Assembly: GCA_031272025.1 (NCBI GenBank)
Contig: JAISUP010000027.1
Location: forward strand, 1 to 29,169
Direction of reading: 5' to 3'
DNA length: 29,169 nt
Source of the DNA: Bacteroidales bacterium
GTDB lineage: Bacteria > Bacteroidota > Bacteroidia > Bacteroidales > WCHB1-69
Shown piece after piece: positions 2,094-29,025 of this stretch. The notes below the pieces were generated by a model. That model ran no database searches and was not told the DNA's origin. It saw only the letters and a list, made by a program, of their open reading frames with translations. A program made the translations under genes and the position numbers. How positions within the stretch are numbered: the stretch's first letter is position 1; each line of letters starts with the position of its first letter.

Positions 2094-2423
2094 ATGAAAA
2101 ATCTCTACAGTGCAGTCATTCCATTCGACAATGGAAAAATGGGCATCAAGTATGCCATAGAAAATTTTGTTGGTTTTGACAAAATTTCAAAAATCATTTT
2201 GTGTTCCCAAAATGATACTGCCGTAAATAATTCCGAAAATCCAATTATTGTTATCGAAAGAAACAATAAAGACGAAATAATGGAATTGTTAGGCAAAATC
2301 AAAAACGAGACTGGTAATATTCCGGTTGAAGAACTAACACAAGAGCCAACCGTAATAGTTTTGGAACGACAAACAGGTTCCTTTATTACAGTTGAAGATG
2401 ACGGTAAATTTATTAACTATTAA
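2094..2423 (+). CDS. Hypothetical cytoplasmic protein (109 aa)
   Basis: ATG start 5 nt after the previous stop; no recognisable motif. The next gene starts 13 nt downstream. Confidence 0.4.
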   Translation: MKNLYSAVIPFDNGKMGIKYAIENFVGFDKISKIILCSQNDTAVNNSENPIIVIERNNKDEIMELLGKIKNETGNIPVEELTQEPTVIVLERQTGSFITVEDDGKFINY

Positions 2424-2436
2424 GAAAGGAATAATT

Positions 2437-3804
2437 ATGGGCTTTTTAGACGAATTAGAAAGAGGCTTTAAAAAAGGAATTAGAGAAGCAGAGCAAGACG
2501 CGAAACGCTCACGAGAAGCAGAAAGAAAACAGGAACTTTCTCGTGCTCATACAGTTTTGCATCAAATCATTCACAAATACACGGGTGTATTTGCTGTATC
2601 AAGTTATTCTGACTATCTTTATGTTGAAAAAGAGCCGTTAGAAAAAACTATTGAGGCTTTACACAACGACAATCAGCACAATCTTGCAAAAAAGTTAGAA
2701 TTGATGTATGATGATAGTAAAAATGTAGAGTATGACAAGGCTTTTGACATTTACAACATTTCGTATTTAAAAGATGTTGCGCCCTTATATGAAGGTAGAG
2801 CAAAAAAATATGATGGTAATAATGTTGCTGCTGCAACTGTTGCTAACAGCACAAAGAACGCATCGGAAAATGCCTTACATACAGGAAATGAACCAAAAGA
2901 AAAAGATACTCAATCTGCAAGGGCGCAGAACGGTTCTGTAGAAAAAAACATCCCGCCCAAAGTTCCTGAATTTTGCCCCAGTTGCGGCGCGAAAATTGAA
3001 AATTCACGAAGTTGTGAGTATTGCGGATGGTCTATGGATGGCGAGAGTAATGAAAACAAGCCCCCATTGAGCGATGATTCTTTTGTTTATCCCGGACTTG
3101 TCGATGCTCTGAATGAAAATATTCGGTTGCAAATAAAGCACAATGGAGGCAAATTTGTTGCTACGAATGTGGACTGTGATGGTTATATAGCACAATTTGT
3201 TGCTTCAAATCAGTTTACTAATCCGGATACTGGCAGTATAGTATTTCCTTCTGCCAAAAGTCCTTCCATTTCTGTTCGGTTTGATTTAGATAAAGAATCG
3301 CAAGAATTGTCGAAGTTTCAGCAGATGGATACTTTCTCTCTTTTTACACCAGCCGGTAATTGGGATAATGGTCCAGTGTATGCTGTTGATATTGGCGAAG
3401 ATGTTGTTGCAGCCGCGCAACTATATTCAAAAATTATGAAATATGCCTTTGGCTGTACAGGAGAAGAAACGTGCGAGTTCGATACTTGGTCAAATAAAGG
3501 AATTAAAGGCAGCAATAATGTCCCCGCTCATACCACTCAAAATACAGAAGGAATTAAAGGCAGCAATAATGCCCCCATTCATATCGCTCAAAATACAGGA
3601 GGTAAAAATTGGCTGACAACATTATTGTTGTGCCTTTTTCTTGGCTGGTTAGGCGTTCACAGGTTTTATACGAAGAACTACTTGGTTGGCGTGCTCCAAT
3701 TTTTTACATTTGGTTGCATCGGCTTATGGACACTGATTGATTTTATTTTGATTCTTGTTGGAAGTTACAAAGATGGCGACGGTCAATTTTTAGTTAAAAA
3801 TTAA
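2437..3804 (+). CDS. Membrane protein with three parts: a zinc-ribbon (CPSCG...CEYCGW), an uncharacterised ~150-aa domain shared with the downstream paralog, and a C-terminal TM2 domain. A 17-aa tandem repeat lies before the anchor.
   Basis: Trimmed to ATG 2437 (MGFLDELERG), which is preceded by aggaataatt. Zinc ribbon: CPSCGAKIENSRSCEYCG. The C-terminus NWLTTLLLCLFLGWLGVHRFYTKNYLVGVLQFFTFGCIGLWTLIDFILILVG matches the TM2 family signature. The shared domain YPGLVDALNENIRLQ...FGCTGEETCEFDTW aligns with the product of 3823-4575. Confidence 0.7.
   Translation: MGFLDELERGFKKGIREAEQDAKRSREAERKQELSRAHTVLHQIIHKYTGVFAVSSYSDYLYVEKEPLEKTIEALHNDNQHNLAKKLELMYDDSKNVEYDKAFDIYNISYLKDVAPLYEGRAKKYDGNNVAAATVANSTKNASENALHTGNEPKEKDTQSARAQNGSVEKNIPPKVPEFCPSCGAKIENSRSCEYCGWSMDGESNENKPPLSDDSFVYPGLVDALNENIRLQIKHNGGKFVATNVDCDGYIAQFVASNQFTNPDTGSIVFPSAKSPSISVRFDLDKESQELSKFQQMDTFSLFTPAGNWDNGPVYAVDIGEDVVAAAQLYSKIMKYAFGCTGEETCEFDTWSNKGIKGSNNVPAHTTQNTEGIKGSNNAPIHIAQNTGGKNWLTTLLLCLFLGWLGVHRFYTKNYLVGVLQFFTFGCIGLWTLIDFILILVGSYKDGDGQFLVKN
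3499..3600 (+). repeat. Intragenic 51-bp (17-aa) tandem duplication: GIKGSNNVPAHTTQNTE / GIKGSNNAPIHIAQNTG
   Basis: Unit ggaattaaaggcagcaataatg... starts at 3499 and again at 3550; about 44 of 51 nt are identical. It lies between the shared domain and the TM2 anchor. Confidence 0.8.
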
Positions 3805-4643: not shown

Positions 4644-4647
4644 GTTA

Positions 4648-4690
4648 ATCGTGATAATCAAATAAATCATCCAAAAATCACAGTTCAAAG
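4648..4690. repeat. Half copy (right arm, AATCA-repeat half ending AAAATCACAGTTCA) of the GTCTGAAC...GTTCAGAC palindromic element family
   Basis: gtgataatcaaataaatcatccaaaaatcacagttcaaagg matches the right half of the full copy at 27340-27432. Confidence 0.5.
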
Positions 4691-27035: not shown

Positions 27036-27088
27036 GTCTGAACCACGATTTTCATAAGATTTTCTTGATTGCCAAGATTTTTTCAGCA
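27036..27088. repeat. Half copy (left arm GTCTGAACCACGATTTT plus GATT repeats) of the palindromic element family, upstream of the GH3 gene
   Basis: gtctgaaccacgattttcataagattttcttgattgccaagatttttt. No right arm follows. Confidence 0.5.
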
Positions 27089-27120
27089 CACGGATATATT
27101 GCACTCGACAATAAAATTTT

Positions 27121-27200
27121 CTTCGTGTAACTTCGAGGTTCTTCGTGAACCTTCGTGTAATTATTTTAGCTACACGAAGTTACACAAAGAAGGCACGAAT
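27121..27200. repeat. Exact 10-bp periodic repeat array: 4 direct units CTTCGTGTAA-like, a 10-bp spacer, then 3 inverted units TTACACGAAG-like
   Basis: cttcgtgtaa|cttcgaggtt|cttcgtgaac|cttcgtgtaa|ttattttagc|tacacgaagt|tacacaaaga|aggcacgaat. Unit starts fall at 27121/31/41/51 and 27171/81/91. Confidence 0.75.
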
Positions 27201-27258
27201 AACCACAGAGAGTTACAAAAGTAAAAAGTGAAAAATATTTTCGCGTTAATTTGCGGAC

Positions 27259-27295
27259 AAAAAAAAACAGGCAACGACACCACCGCTGCCTGTTT
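27259..27295 (-). terminator. Rho-independent terminator for the minus-strand T9SS cargo gene (stem acaggca / tgcctgt, followed on the minus strand by a T9 run). A second 8-bp hairpin lies at 27312-27333.
   Basis: aaaaaaaaacaggcaacgacaccaccgctgcctgttt: on the minus strand this reads GC-rich stem-loop then UUUUUUUUU. The atcgcggg/cccgcgat hairpin lies just before it. Confidence 0.6.
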
Positions 27296-27339
27296 CTCTT
27301 TCTTTGCCGTCATCGCGGGACCTAACCCGCGATCCCCTT

Positions 27340-27432
27340 GTCTGAACTGTGATTTTCGTATGATTGAGGTGATTACTATGATTTTAAAAATCACACAAAT
27401 CAAATGAATCACTCTAAAATCACAGTTCAGAC
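27340..27432. repeat. Full copy of the ~93-bp imperfect palindromic element with 17-bp perfect terminal inverted repeats GTCTGAACTGTGATTTT, abutting the stop codon of the T9SS cargo gene
   Basis: gtctgaactgtgattttcgtatgattgaggtgattactatgattttaaaaatcacacaaatcaaatgaatcactctaaaatcacagttcagac. The halves are roughly mirror images (GATT/AATC repeats). It ends 3 nt before the TAA at 27436. Confidence 0.8.
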
Positions 27433-27435
27433 GAA

Positions 27436-28677
27436 TTATTCCTTCACCACCTTCACGCCCGCGCTTGCCGTGCCGTTTTCCACGATGCGCAGAATGTAGG
27501 TGCCTTGCGCGAGGTGCGCGATATTGATGGTTTCCCGTAGAGACGTGGCGTGCCGCGTCTCTACAACGCGACCTGACAAATCGAACAGCGCGAGCGTTCC
27601 GTTGGCGGCGCGTTCCAATTCCACGTTCAACTCGTTTTTCGCGGGATTGGGATAAACTTTCATCGGCGCGGCTGCTTGAACGCTACGTATGCCCGTTTCG
27701 GTGCAGGTAGCAAAATTTGCCGTGAAAGTAGTGTCGCTTGCAACATTGACTGTGCGCGGATTGTCGAGATTGCCGTCTGCCCAGCCGAGAAAGACAACGC
27801 CGCCTTTGGGCAAGGCAAGCAATGTGATATTACCGCTGTGATTTGCCGAAGTATTGTCGGGCGTGGTGGTTACAAAGCCGCAACCCGCAAAACTGTAAGC
27901 GTGTCCTTTGGATACATCGCTCGAAAGTACCGTTAAGGTGTTCAAACATTCGGCTTCTACAAGATTGGCAGTTGTCCAAAATACCACATTACTCCCGTAA
28001 GTAAGGTCTCTATTCCAATACTGCGGATAATTTGTCATCGAGAGTTCAAACAATTCCCTTGTTCCACAGGGAATAATGATTTTTGTAGTTGTCGGGTTAT
28101 TGCCAAATGTTTGTTGTTGATTACCATAGGTATTGCCTGTTGCCAAATTATAAAAAATGGCTGTTCCTTTGAAAATAACGCTGTCTAATGGGTAACCTTG
28201 AAACGCTTCCCCTCCAAAATACTGATAATATTCCCCAAATGTTACTTTGGTTAAATTGGGAAATTGTCCGGTCCCAGAAGGAGTTGCATTAAAGGACTGA
28301 AATTGTCGCATAAAGCGTGGCAAAACAAGTTCTGTCAGGTTACTGAAAACATAGCCATCATTATAACCTTCGCCGTGAATTACACCGCCATACAGACGAT
28401 AGGTAACGCCGTTGCCATCAACAACAGTTTCGGGTAAAACCCATTTTGTCAATCCAGCAGGGGCGGAAATAATGATGTTTGCCAAACTGACCGTTTGCAT
28501 TGTTACGCCATCGGGAAAAGTAACGCCGCTATTACCGTCAACTTGGTAAGTCGCCGTCACACCGCTTGCATCGGTGTAATTGAATGTTTGTGCCATCGCG
28601 CTGCTCGAAAGAGCGATTACTGCGAGGAGGGCTGTTGTTTTTGCCACGTTCCTCAAAAAAATACTTTTTGATAACAT
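27436..28677 (-). CDS. Secreted T9SS cargo protein (T9SS C-terminal sorting domain; N-terminal domain unassigned)
   Basis: Trimmed to ATG 28677, giving the signal peptide MLSKSIFLRNVAKTTALLAVIALSSSAMAQ. C-terminal KVYPNPAKNELNVELERAANGTLALFDLSGRVV...GTYILRIVENG matches the T9SS CTD. Marked GC shift between the 5' two-thirds (AT-rich) and the 3' ~500 bp (GC-rich). Confidence 0.65.
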   Translation of the reverse strand: MLSKSIFLRNVAKTTALLAVIALSSSAMAQTFNYTDASGVTATYQVDGNSGVTFPDGVTMQTVSLANIIISAPAGLTKWVLPETVVDGNGVTYRLYGGVIHGEGYNDGYVFSNLTELVLPRFMRQFQSFNATPSGTGQFPNLTKVTFGEYYQYFGGEAFQGYPLDSVIFKGTAIFYNLATGNTYGNQQQTFGNNPTTTKIIIPCGTRELFELSMTNYPQYWNRDLTYGSNVVFWTTANLVEAECLNTLTVLSSDVSKGHAYSFAGCGFVTTTPDNTSANHSGNITLLALPKGGVVFLGWADGNLDNPRTVNVASDTTFTANFATCTETGIRSVQAAAPMKVYPNPAKNELNVELERAANGTLALFDLSGRVVETRHATSLRETINIAHLAQGTYILRIVENGTASAGVKVVKE

Positions 28678-28693
28678 AAAAATAAAAATTTGT

Positions 28694-28745
28694 GTCTGAA
28701 CTTTGATTTTCAAATGATTGTTTTGATGTTTTTGATTGAAAACCA
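28694..28745. repeat. Half copy (left arm GTCTGAACTTTGATTTT plus GATT repeats) of the palindromic element, 17 bp upstream of the T9SS gene ATG
   Basis: gtctgaactttgattttcaaatgattgttttgatgtttttgattgaaaacc. Confidence 0.5.
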
Positions 28746-28934
28746 TTGTCTTCGACGGTTAATATTGAATTTAGAATAACTTTCTGTGTTAGGGGATTGC
28801 GGCTTTGGCTTACGCCGATTTTCAATTCGCCGCAATGACGGTGGAACAGGCGGGGATTGCGGTGTAGGGGCGCGATTAATCGCACACGCCCCAAACCTGT
28901 CAGGTTTTCAAAACCTAACAGGTTTAAATTGAGA

Positions 28935-29025
28935 GTCTGAACTGTGATTTTACTATGATTACAATGATTGATATGATTTTTAATCACAGCAATCAAAAAA
29001 ATCAAGCGAAAATCAAGGTTCAGAC
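28935..29025. repeat. Second full copy of the palindromic element (left arm GTCTGAACTGTGATTTT, right arm AAAATCAAGGTTCAGAC)
   Basis: gtctgaactgtgattttactatgattacaatgattgatatgatttttaatcacagcaatcaaaaaaatcaagcgaaaatcaaggttcagac. Confidence 0.75.

What the first reader, a model, noticed from the sequence alone, without database searches (positions are those of the whole stretch)
27036..29025. Family of ~90-bp imperfect palindromic (MITE/REP-like) elements with 17-bp terminal inverted repeats GTCTGAACTGTGATTTT; two full and three half copies, all in gene-flanking positions
Full copies lie at 27340-27432 and 28935-29025. Left-arm half copies lie at 27036-27088 and 28694-28745. A right-arm half copy at 4648-4690 directly follows a terminator hairpin. 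Each half is built from GATT/AATC-type short repeats, so the full element can fold into a long hairpin. Copies sit 3 nt after a stop codon, 17 bp before a start codon, and about 150 bp upstream of the GH3 and glgB genes. These are positions where such elements could supply promoters, terminators, mRNA-stability hairpins or protein-binding sites. Two full copies plus a half copy bracket the T9SS cargo gene 27436-28677. I do not recognise this repeat.
Basis: seen in the sequence. Interest (0 to 1): 0.6.

Follow-up and report, generated by a model that had tools for sequence, protein, structure and literature searches.

The report
Palindromic repeats tied to nuclease gene
The ~90-bp palindromes are real, and they are gene-less copies of a repeat found in about ten bacterial phyla whose complete form encloses a small uncharacterised Cas4-like nuclease gene (GxxExxY), which points to a kind of selfish DNA element I could not find described.

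Summary
The window holds seven arms: two full palindromes and three solo arms. Each arm is GTCTGAAC, two variable bases, then about four (T)GATT units spaced 9 bp apart. The family is not local. An exact-pattern scan hit at least 119 genome loci in about ten phyla. Similarity between copies stops at the termini.

The only gene repeatedly found between such termini is a ~135-aa GxxExxY protein (TIGR04256 / PF13366). In an independent sample of 80 such genes, 68 had termini within 300 bp and 54 had them on both sides. Most of the rest carry variant termini. In the simplest unit (~460 bp) the left arm supplies the start codon and the right arm encodes the C-terminal tail and stop.

The protein models confidently as a minimal Cas4/RecB-type PD-(D/E)XK nuclease with intact catalytic residues. 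There is no target-site duplication, no transposase and no Rfam match, and I found no paper on it.

Best reading: the window's repeats are gene-less derivatives of a selfish nuclease-gene element, closer in logic to REPIN/RAYT than to a classic MITE. How they move is inferred, not shown. The only strain differences seen are tandem duplications.

The parts
27340..27432 (.). Full gene-less palindrome (left arm + right arm), copy 1. It lies in the 3' UTR of the minus-strand T9SS-sorted gene, between its stop codon (27436) and an intrinsic terminator (~27293-27258).
   Evidence: I4; DNA hairpin z -7.6. It is 88% identical to an element in another termite-gut Bacteroidales MAG (L039), and that similarity ends at the termini.
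28935..29025 (.). Full gene-less palindrome, copy 2. The contig ends 144 bp further on.
   Evidence: (z -6.2)
27036..27084 (+). Solo left arm (GTCTGAAC then GATT units). Its outer end faces the GH3 gene start ~146 bp away.
   Evidence: D1, 69% identical to the reference arm; E 0.0011; no hairpin of its own
28694..28742 (+). Solo left arm. Read on the minus strand it is an open right-arm orientation ending 16 nt before the ATG (28677) of the T9SS-sorted gene, and it is in frame with that gene.
   Evidence: (D1, 76%)
4647..4690 (+). Solo right arm (AATCA units then the degenerate terminus GTTCAAAG), ~163 bp upstream of the glgB-like gene and just after a GC-rich hairpin.
   Evidence: D6, I7; weak, E 0.18

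Best explanation
The repeats are gene-less copies (two whole palindromes and three single arms) of a widespread selfish element.

Anatomy of the complete form. Two inverted arms, each GTCTGAAC-NN-(T/G)GATT followed by further GATT units every 9 bp, enclose one gene. That gene encodes a ~135-aa GxxExxY protein, a minimal Cas4/RecB-type PD-(D/E)XK nuclease. The left arm provides the 5' leader and the start codon(s). The right arm encodes the C-terminal tail and the stop. The unit has no room for a promoter of its own and usually sits co-oriented inside host operons, very often type I restriction-modification operons. It is probably expressed by read-through.

Shown:
- the anatomy;
- the tight gene-arm association;
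- the cross-phylum spread with homology ending at the termini;
- the absence of a target-site duplication;
- the intact nuclease active site;
- local amplification by tandem duplication that carries 12-23 bp of flank.

Inferred:
- The arms are the substrate the nuclease recognises. The conserved 8-bp terminus would be the cleavage or junction site, and the phased GATT array would be the binding platform, on duplex or extruded hairpin DNA.
- Gene-less copies arise by loss of the gene through recombination between arms. The L-ORF-L-R and L-R-ORF-R arrangements are the expected intermediates.
- Gene-less copies are then propagated in trans, as REPINs are by RAYT.
- In this window they need have no host function.
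For: Forward association. Among open reading frames (ORFs) in 119 loci found by the DNA pattern alone, the only recurrent small family is GxxExxY. It lies between or against termini in 4 of 5 cases. It matches TIGR04256 at E 3e-38 and PF13366 at E 1e-37.

Reverse test. Eighty metagenome loci were chosen by protein similarity only.
- Termini lie within 300 bp in 68 loci and on both sides in 54.
- Terminus density is 4.47 per kb near the gene against 0.44 per kb farther away.
- The apparent exceptions mostly carry variant termini, either GTCTGAAC plus 3 nt or GTCTTAAC.
- No other cargo is bounded by termini in any locus.

Anatomy. The modal unit is 452-526 bp. Its ATG lies in the third or fourth ATGATT unit, and its stop lies inside the right arm.

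Discrete unit.
- Copies from different genomes, and even different phyla, are 84-95% identical over the element only, with homology ending within ~5 nt of the termini.
- At least 119 loci in about ten phyla carry the pattern.
- A cyanobacterial contig carries a protein 87% identical, flanked by TGATT arms.
- A GC-rich contig carries a 58%-identical protein flanked by GTCTGAAC + GGATT arms.

Protein.
- Invariant residues are E32, D71, E81-x-K83 and Q95xxxY99.
- The AlphaFold model has pLDDT 93.9.

Arms track the protein clade.
- Distant GxxExxY genes carry other 9-bp-unit inverted arms: CACAGAGG in two proteins that are 55% identical to each other, and CGCAGAGGA in Gemmatirosa. The Gemmatirosa arms still end in GTTCAGAC.
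- The variable dinucleotide at positions 8-9 is complementary between the two arms in 80 of 135 elements, against 37 expected.

Derivation from gene-bearing units.
- L078 shows two near-identical direct left arms flanking the ORF.
- L209 has gene-less copies that retain the first ~6 GxxExxY-like codons.
Against: - No GxxExxY gene lies in this 29-kb contig. The source genome could not be examined: the contig is the whole record, and its nearest relative is only 63% identical.
- In the non-Bacteroidota genomes that hold many gene-less copies (Dehalococcoidia, Armatimonadota, Desulfobacterota, Thiotrichaceae), no cognate gene was seen in the ~55 loci held.
- No empty versus filled site was found. 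The only strain polymorphisms seen are one versus two tandem copies with duplicated flank. That shows duplication, not transposition.
- Identical proteins looked up across 20-24 contigs always sat in the same operon.
- The gene is flanked by arms in all four orientation combinations: L-R 22, R-R 16, R-L 10, L-L 6. The simple 'inverted repeats around a gene' picture is therefore incomplete.
- No PD-(D/E)XK nuclease is known to carry out strand transfer on its own (established knowledge).
- Some family members at 43-52% identity show no arms at all.
Confidence: 0.6

Rival explanations
1. The arms work mainly at the RNA level. In a host operon transcript the two arms pair into a long stem. The stem insulates or excises the parasitic cistron, much as RNase III excises 23S rRNA intervening sequences and cuts Correia-element hairpins. 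Gene-less palindromes and solo arms are inert scars left after the gene is lost. They do not move by themselves.
For: - In 15 of 15 L-ORF-R units, RNA folding pairs the two arms across the ~370-nt ORF. The pairing probability of the terminal 8 nt is 0.81-0.99, with 22-36 arm-arm pairs, against about 0 in controls.
- The units are co-oriented with their neighbours (52 of 61 upstream, 54 of 59 downstream) and packed into operons.
- Arm sequences differ between protein clades but stay mutually complementary.
- Copy 1 in the window lies in a 3' UTR.
Against: - The 8-bp terminus and the GATT units are conserved in sequence across phyla, which a pure structure does not require.
- Spacers between GATT units are often not complementary.
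- There is no per-copy compensatory change: the two arms of one element are no more alike than arms of different copies in the same genome.
- R-ORF-R and L-ORF-L arrangements cannot form the stem.
- The model does not explain high copy numbers of near-identical gene-less copies or tandem arrays.
- This reading is not exclusive of the best explanation.
Confidence: 0.2
2. It is a conventional MITE mobilised in trans by an unidentified DDE-type insertion sequence that shares the GTCTGAAC termini. The GxxExxY gene is merely frequent cargo.
For: - The elements have terminal inverted repeats, are small, lie between genes and occur in many copies.
- Cross-phylum spread is typical of promiscuous insertion sequences.
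Against: - There is no target-site duplication at any offset or length from 2 to 8 bp.
- No transposase-like ORF lies between termini in ~250 loci. The only bounded ORF family is GxxExxY.
- The arms overlap the start and stop of the GxxExxY ORF and change together with the protein clade.
Confidence: 0.07
3. It is a host-serving REP-like element: a binding array for a nucleoid or regulatory protein, or an mRNA-stability or terminator hairpin, retained because it is useful at gene ends.
For: - Median distance to a gene's 3' end is 15 nt.
- Host stop codons often lie inside the terminus, at GTCTGA or NNTGA.
- The GATT units are phased.
- All three solo arms in the window point towards a gene start.
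Against: - There is no U-tract after the hairpin, and copy 1 has its own terminator downstream.
- All three classes of intergenic region are occupied: 56 co-directional, 20 divergent, 19 convergent.
- Solo arms elsewhere face gene starts 21 times and gene ends 15 times.
- Copy number varies between close strains.
- The same sequence in about ten phyla argues against a lineage-specific host factor.
Confidence: 0.08
4. The palindromes are integron attC-like recombination sites, and the genes between them are cassettes.
For: - They are imperfect palindromes in the attC size range.
- The termini resemble RYYYAAC / GTTRRRY apart from one extra base.
- The host phyla overlap with those that hold integrons (the last point is from my own knowledge).
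Against: - GTCTGAAC and GTTCAGAC do not fit the R boxes (read directly from the sequence).
- Copies are mostly single and not arranged in cassette arrays.
- No integrase family recurs in the loci.
- attC sites have no phased GATT units.
Confidence: 0.02

Closest known systems
REP/REPIN elements with their RAYT (REP-associated tyrosine transposase) gene
   Same: - Dispersed intergenic palindromes that form hairpins.
- No target-site duplication.
- Clusters and tandem arrays.
- One small associated nuclease-type gene that is itself flanked by the repeats.
- The non-coding copies far outnumber the gene.
   Different: - The associated protein is a Cas4/RecB-type PD-(D/E)XK nuclease, not an HUH/Y1 enzyme.
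- Each arm is ~45 bp built from 9-bp phased units rather than a 20-40-bp REP with a GTAG tag.
- The arms overlap the ORF's start and stop.
- The same termini occur in about ten phyla, whereas REPs are lineage-specific.
- The gene family is very large and often multi-copy.
Bacterial MITEs such as Neisseria Correia elements
   Same: - A ~100-bp non-coding element with terminal inverted repeats.
- Mostly intergenic and co-transcribed with neighbouring genes.
- The hairpin could be an RNase III substrate (established knowledge for Correia elements).
   Different: - No target-site duplication (Correia elements duplicate TA).
- No DDE-transposase parent.
- The gene-bearing counterpart encodes a nuclease of unknown function.
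23S rRNA intervening sequences that carry a small ORF (PF05635 four-helix-bundle protein; Leptospira, Coxiella)
   Same: - A small selfish ORF bracketed by inverted repeats predicted to pair in the host transcript.
- Inserted in essential transcription units and tolerated there.
   Different: - A different protein family.
- Insertion in rRNA was not examined here.
- No four-helix-bundle gene was found between these termini.
- This comparison rests on my own knowledge.
Cas4 / RecB-family nucleases (protein level only)
   Same: - Same catalytic signature: E...D...ExK...QxxxY.
   Different: - About 135 aa, with no Fe-S cluster domain and no CRISPR context.
- No sequence-level match to any PDB chain.
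Free-standing homing-endonuclease genes in operons
   Same: A tiny nuclease gene wedged co-directionally between host genes with almost no intergenic space, for example fabD-GxxExxY-fabG.
   Different: - Homing genes do not have flanking palindromic arms or dispersed gene-less derivatives.
- No cleavage-site logic is known for this family.

Membership tests
MITE (non-autonomous derivative of a DDE insertion sequence) | Terminal inverted repeats on a short element with no ORF | tested here: met
   The 17-nt termini are inverted and the elements are 77-106 bp.
MITE (non-autonomous derivative of a DDE insertion sequence) | Flanking target-site duplication of fixed length | tested here: not met
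   In 137 unique elements, direct-repeat matches for k = 2-8 at offsets 0-4 are about as frequent as in permuted flanks. The flank preference is palindromic, aTT|...|AAt.
MITE (non-autonomous derivative of a DDE insertion sequence) | A parent element with the same termini that encodes a transposase | tested here: not met
   The only ORF family bounded by the termini is GxxExxY (PF13366), which is not a known transposase.
REP/REPIN-RAYT system | 20-40-bp palindromes with a GTAG/CGTC tag | tested here: not met
   The arms are ~45 bp, begin with GTCTGAAC and contain phased GATT units.
REP/REPIN-RAYT system | Associated HUH/Y1 transposase gene flanked by the repeats | tested here: not met
   The flanked gene is a PD-(D/E)XK nuclease. 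The layout is analogous, but the enzyme class differs.
Integron attC site | R'' RYYYAAC and R' GTTRRRY boxes; cassette arrays; IntI integrase | tested here: not met
   GTCTGAAC and GTTCAGAC each carry one extra base relative to the R boxes. Copies are mostly single per 8-kb locus. No recurrent integrase was found.
GxxExxY protein family (TIGR04256 / PF13366), for the partner gene | Profile match above the curated cut-off; GxxExxY motif; PD-(D/E)XK catalytic residues | tested here: met
   130.6 bits against a cut-off of 35, and 129.2 bits against 22. G29, E32, Y35, D71, E81, K83, Q95 and Y99 are invariant. This holds in related loci only; no such gene lies in the window.
Known structured RNA families (Rfam 15) | Match at the gathering score | tested here: not met
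   No hit at the gathering threshold. There are only sub-threshold miRNA-hairpin matches.
Intrinsic terminator | GC-rich hairpin followed by a T-run | tested here: not met
   The positions after the terminus are A, A. No element is flagged by the terminator scan, and a separate terminator follows copy 1.
rRNA intervening-sequence element | Insertion in 23S rRNA helices and excision by RNase III | not tested
   The loci were not screened for rRNA. Only the predicted long-range arm pairing in RNA was computed.

The most novel reading that the evidence does not exclude
GxxExxY units are a previously unrecognised class of prokaryotic mobile element. Their only protein is a minimal Cas4-like PD-(D/E)XK nuclease. 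It recognises phased 9-bp repeats and an 8-bp terminus on palindromic arms, and it drives spread of both the gene-bearing and gene-less forms without target duplication. Spread could proceed through hairpin or cruciform cleavage, or through break-induced recombination between arms. Type I restriction-modification operons would be a favoured landing place.
Probability: 0.35. Interest if true: 0.9.

Novelty: new variant of a known kind. Interest (0 to 1): 0.7.

Why it matters
- PF13366/TIGR04256 is a very large family with no assigned function. It has 14,402 clusters at 50% identity at E<=1e-3, and more than 8,000 clusters at 90% identity were returned for one subfamily. A 2012 superfamily survey lists its function as 'Unknown' (PMC3424549). 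Tying the family to a conserved DNA partner gives it a testable function.
- If the nuclease does act on the arms, this would add an enzyme class to the short list known to propagate palindromic repeats. It would also offer a compact protein with a defined DNA recognition site.
- The repeats matter in practice. They break metagenome assemblies: contigs end at them. They generate spurious small ORFs (LNCDF..., NHKNHSSD). They alter gene ends, because host stop codons lie inside the termini. They vary in copy number between strains inside restriction-modification operons.

Tried and rejected
- **Literature.** Text searches for the terminus sequences returned only noise. 'GxxExxY' and 'PF13366/PDDEXK_3' returned five papers in all, none about repeats or mobility. 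Searches on nuclease-linked repeats, MITEs, REPINs and intervening sequences found nothing that matches. The 2024 MITE review lists no such family. Porphyromonas BrickBuilt termini are unrelated.
- **Empty-site test for the window.** The window is a complete contig of a Bacteroidales MAG, and its nearest GH3 relative is 63% identical, so no comparison was possible.
- **Identical protein in several contexts.** Four look-ups always returned the same operon.
- **Phage carriage.** There was one viral contig with the pattern and no GxxExxY relative.
- **Defence annotation.** There was no PADLOC match and only a weak PHROG match.
- **First structure model.** A shallow alignment gave pLDDT 43.8, so the model was discarded.
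- **Other cargo between termini.** Only artefact ORFs that translate the arms themselves were found.
- **Orientation rule for solo arms.** The pattern seen in the window does not hold elsewhere.
- **Neisseria DNA-uptake sequence.** It shares GTCTGAA with the terminus. I judged this coincidental and did not pursue it.
- **TAACTGA repeats of Beggiatoaceae (PMC4679880).** I did not read the paper. From its title and abstract these are direct repeats of a different motif (TAACTGA), which I take to be a different unit.
Full report
**1.

The window contains seven arms of one repeat.
- Two pairs form complete palindromes at 27340-27432 and 28935-29025.
- Three arms stand alone at 27036-27084, 28694-28742 and 4647-4690.

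The terminal 17-mer matches 7 times with up to 2 mismatches, against 0.01 expected. The repeat finder recovers the same direct and inverted families. A profile built only from 340 arms of other genomes picks out exactly these seven sites in the 29 kb.

As single-stranded DNA the full copies fold into long interrupted hairpins (z -7.6 and -6.2). The solo arms do not fold.

- a GH3 glycosidase;
- a protein with a T9SS sorting domain;
- a glgB-like enzyme.

The window is the whole 29,169-nt contig of a 'Bacteroidales bacterium' MAG. Its closest GH3 relatives are termite-gut Bacteroidales at 63% identity or less.

**2. Anatomy of an arm**

I aligned 353 unique arms from all loci on the terminus. 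The consensus is aTT | GTCTGAAC | YN | TGATT, followed by further GATT units centred 9 bp apart (positions 11-14, 20-23, 29-32, 38-41). Little is conserved between the units. The flank preference (T 77%, T 65%, A 49%) is the mirror image on the other side, so it extends the palindrome rather than forming a direct repeat.

In the orientation GTCTGAAC>GATT, the terminus and the TGATT units place TGA stops in two reading frames. GATTAA often closes the third frame. The opposite orientation is open in all frames (read directly from the sequence).

**3. The family is far larger than this genome**

By my count of the record titles they break down as follows:

| Group | Loci |
|---|---|
| Bacteroidota | 64 |
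| Dehalococcoidia | 17 |
| Desulfobacterota | 11 |
| Chthonomonadaceae (Armatimonadota) | 8 |
| Thiotrichaceae | 5 |
| Spirochaetota | 3 |
| Cyanobacteria | 3 |
| Patescibacteria/Peribacteria | 3 |
| Margulisiibacteriota | 2 |
| Fibrobacter | 1 |
| Latescibacterota | 1 |
| Unclassified | 1 |

Several of these loci are on chromosome-level long-read MAGs, so mis-binning cannot explain the spread.

The 139 elements are 77-106 bp long, and some form tandem arrays of up to seven copies. All-against-all blastn shows copies from different genomes, and even different phyla, at 84-95% identity over the element only. Homology ends within about 5 nt of the termini. Examples are window copy 1 against L039, Margulisiibacteriota against Fibrobacter, and Desulfobacterales against a Bacteroidota-type metagenome copy. 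This is the signature of a discrete, horizontally spreading unit.

**4. The partner gene**

I clustered all ORFs of the 119 loci. Only one small family recurred next to the repeats, in five Bacteroidota loci, and in four of them it lay between or against termini. It is the 'GxxExxY protein' (TIGR04256, 130 bits; PF13366 PDDEXK_3, 129 bits).

The reverse test is independent of the DNA pattern. I fetched eighty metagenome loci by protein similarity alone.
- 68 had a terminus within 300 bp of the gene, and 54 had one on both sides.
- Terminus density was 4.47 per kb near the gene against 0.44 per kb farther away.
- The twelve apparent exceptions mostly carry variant termini that the strict pattern missed, either GTCTGAAC + 3 nt + TGATT or GTCTTAAC.
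- No other protein family is bounded by termini anywhere. The remaining 'ORFs' are translations of the arms themselves.

**5. The complete unit**

In the simplest form (22 of 92 unique genes) the unit is 452-526 bp.
- A 44-bp left arm carries the start codon in its third and/or fourth ATGATT unit. The two ATGs are in frame because the period is 9.
- The ORF follows.
- A right arm encodes the C-terminal tail (...KSxESKKSN) and contains the stop.

Other arrangements are common: R-ORF-R 16, R-ORF-L 10 (the gene lies between two complete palindromes) and L-ORF-L 6.

Where the gene is flanked by two direct copies of one arm (L078, L054, L113, L221), recombination between them would delete the gene and leave exactly a gene-less palindrome. 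In L209 two gene-less copies are still followed by about six codons resembling the GxxExxY N-terminal YKY motif. These observations support derivation of the ~90-bp palindromes from gene-bearing units.

**6. Where the units sit**

The gene is co-oriented with its upstream neighbour in 52 of 61 cases and with its downstream neighbour in 54 of 59. Neighbours fall into 68 clusters. The largest look, from the sequences themselves and from Pfam assignments on the look-up loci, like HsdS (21), RhuM/Fic (10), HsdR (9), Bro-N-like proteins and DNA methylases.

All four look-ups of exact proteins returned type I restriction-modification operons. Distant family members on plasmids and chromids sit between housekeeping genes, for example fabD-GxxExxY-fabG in Sphingomonas.

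Gene-less copies occupy co-directional (56), divergent (20) and convergent (19) intergenic regions.
- Median distance to a gene's 3' end is 15 nt, and host stop codons frequently lie inside the terminus.
- Median distance to a gene's 5' end is 75 nt.

**7. Tests of known kinds**

- There is no target-site duplication at any offset or length and no transposase. It is therefore not a classic MITE.
- The arms are not GTAG/CGTC-tagged 20-40-mers and the enzyme is not HUH. It is therefore not a REP/RAYT member, though it is organised like one.
- The termini miss the attC R-box consensus by one base, and copies are not in cassette arrays.
- Rfam gives nothing at gathering scores.
- The hairpins are followed by A, not T. 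Copy 1 lies between the T9SS gene's stop codon and a separate canonical terminator on the same strand.
- Solo arms outside the window face gene starts 21 times and gene ends 15 times.

**8. The protein**

Across members 28-63% identical, the invariant residues are G29, E32 and Y35 (the name motif), D71, E81-x-K83 and Q95-xxx-Y99. With a diverse alignment AlphaFold gives pLDDT 93.9 and pTM 0.86.

Structural matches:
- Foldseek adds lambda exonuclease and the Argonaute-associated Cas4-family protein ACE1.

It is thus a minimal Cas4/RecB-type nuclease without the Fe-S module, and its active site is conserved. No solved structure matches by sequence.

The family is very large. There are 14,402 representatives at 50% identity. 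More than 8,000 clusters at 90% identity were returned for this subfamily alone, and the top 120 are 86-96% identical to the query. That pattern fits recent expansion.

**9. Do arms and protein go together?**

- TGATT/GGATT arms with GTCTGAAC termini accompany proteins down to 58% identity, including one on a GC-rich contig and one on a cyanobacterial contig.
- More distant proteins have different inverted arms, again built from ~9-bp units: CACAGAGG in B. finegoldii and Bernardetia, whose proteins are 55% identical to each other; CACGCGAAG in Sphingomonas; and CGCAGAGGA in Gemmatirosa. The Gemmatirosa palindromes still end in GTTCAGAC.
- Two members at 43-52% identity show no arms.
- Within the TGATT family, the variable dinucleotide is complementary between the arms far more often than chance (80 of 135 against 37 expected). 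The two arms of one element are nevertheless no more alike than arms of different copies in the same genome. Palindromy is therefore a family-level property with no sign of per-copy compensatory change.

**10. How copies multiply: what is seen**

Two loci sampled from many metagenomes differ between strains only in having one or two tandem copies.
- In one locus the extra copy carries 23 bp of left flank.
- In the other it carries 12 bp of right flank.

Larger arrays have fixed 6-78-bp spacers. Several elements are wrapped by a second, short pair of termini. So local amplification by duplication is documented. Dispersal to new sites is inferred only from the distribution and from homology that stops at the termini.

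**11. RNA level**

In 15 of 15 L-ORF-R units, RNA folding pairs the two arms across the ORF with probability 0.81-0.99. Such a stem would enclose the start codon and resembles the RNase III stems of rRNA intervening sequences. This is a prediction only. It cannot apply to the R-R and L-L arrangements.

**12. Verdict**

I put the identification of the window's repeats as gene-less members of the GxxExxY-arm family at about 0.95. I put the proposal that the nuclease acts on the arms and propagates them at about 0.4-0.5. The composite best explanation gets 0.6.

I found no description of this association in the searchable literature. That library is incomplete, so prior description cannot be excluded.

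Noticed in passing
window 27120-27199: A second kind of periodic palindrome, built from CTTCGTG / CACGAAG units every 9-11 bp (DNA fold z -4.65). One similar array lies in L040 at 666-692. It is in the same style as the arms around distant GxxExxY genes, such as CACGCGAAG in Sphingomonas. No gene link was found for it.
   Followed up: partly
window 27537-27564: A 28-nt GTAGAGACG...CGTCTCTAC palindrome (GTAG...CTAC, REP-like) lies inside the coding region of the T9SS C-terminal sorting domain. The same repeat appears translated as 'RDVARNVST' in spurious ORFs of a Tannerella MAG (L024).
   Followed up: no
window 28790-28925: The spacer between the 28694 arm and copy 2 holds other small repeats: ggggattgcgg twice, a GC-rich GTAG-type palindrome at ~28864-28893, and a hairpin at ~28895-28925. 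The intergenic regions of this MAG are mosaics of several repeat families.
   Followed up: no
window 27258-27293 (minus strand): A canonical intrinsic terminator (hairpin plus T9) lies downstream of copy 1. Copy 1 is therefore part of the 3' UTR of the T9SS-sorted gene and is not its terminator.
   Followed up: yes
L210-L228, L236-L255, and 80 metagenome loci L120-L199: GxxExxY units are strongly concentrated in type I restriction-modification operons, between hsdS, hsdM and hsdR and alongside RhuM/Fic and Bro-N genes. HsdS is the commonest neighbour (21 of 120 neighbours).
   Followed up: partly
L237/238/240/242 vs L239/241/243/244/245; L247/L249 vs L246: Strain-level polymorphism: one versus two tandem copies of the gene-less element at the same site. 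The extra copy carries 23 bp (left) or 12 bp (right) of duplicated flank.
   Followed up: partly
L041 4224, L088 349, L012 983, L028 2474 and 3718: Full elements are wrapped by a second, short (15-23 nt) outer pair of termini. Removing the inner copy leaves a mini-palindrome with TT|AA at its centre. This could reflect either a target preference or end duplication.
   Followed up: no
L209 6113-6352 (the only viral-contig hit): Two gene-less copies are each followed by ATGGAACTATACAAATAT, about six codons resembling the GxxExxY N-terminal YKY motif. This suggests the gene was lost by deletion.
   Followed up: partly
window end (29169); L208; L250-L254: Contigs often stop at or just beyond these repeats. 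The window ends 144 bp after copy 2, a Logan contig stops ~160 bp upstream of the GH3 start, and several contigs end 50 bp after the GxxExxY ORF. The repeats appear to break short-read assemblies.
   Followed up: no
window 3497-3598: A 51-bp tandem duplication (90% identical) lies inside the ORF at 2392-3804. It is unrelated to the finding.
   Followed up: no
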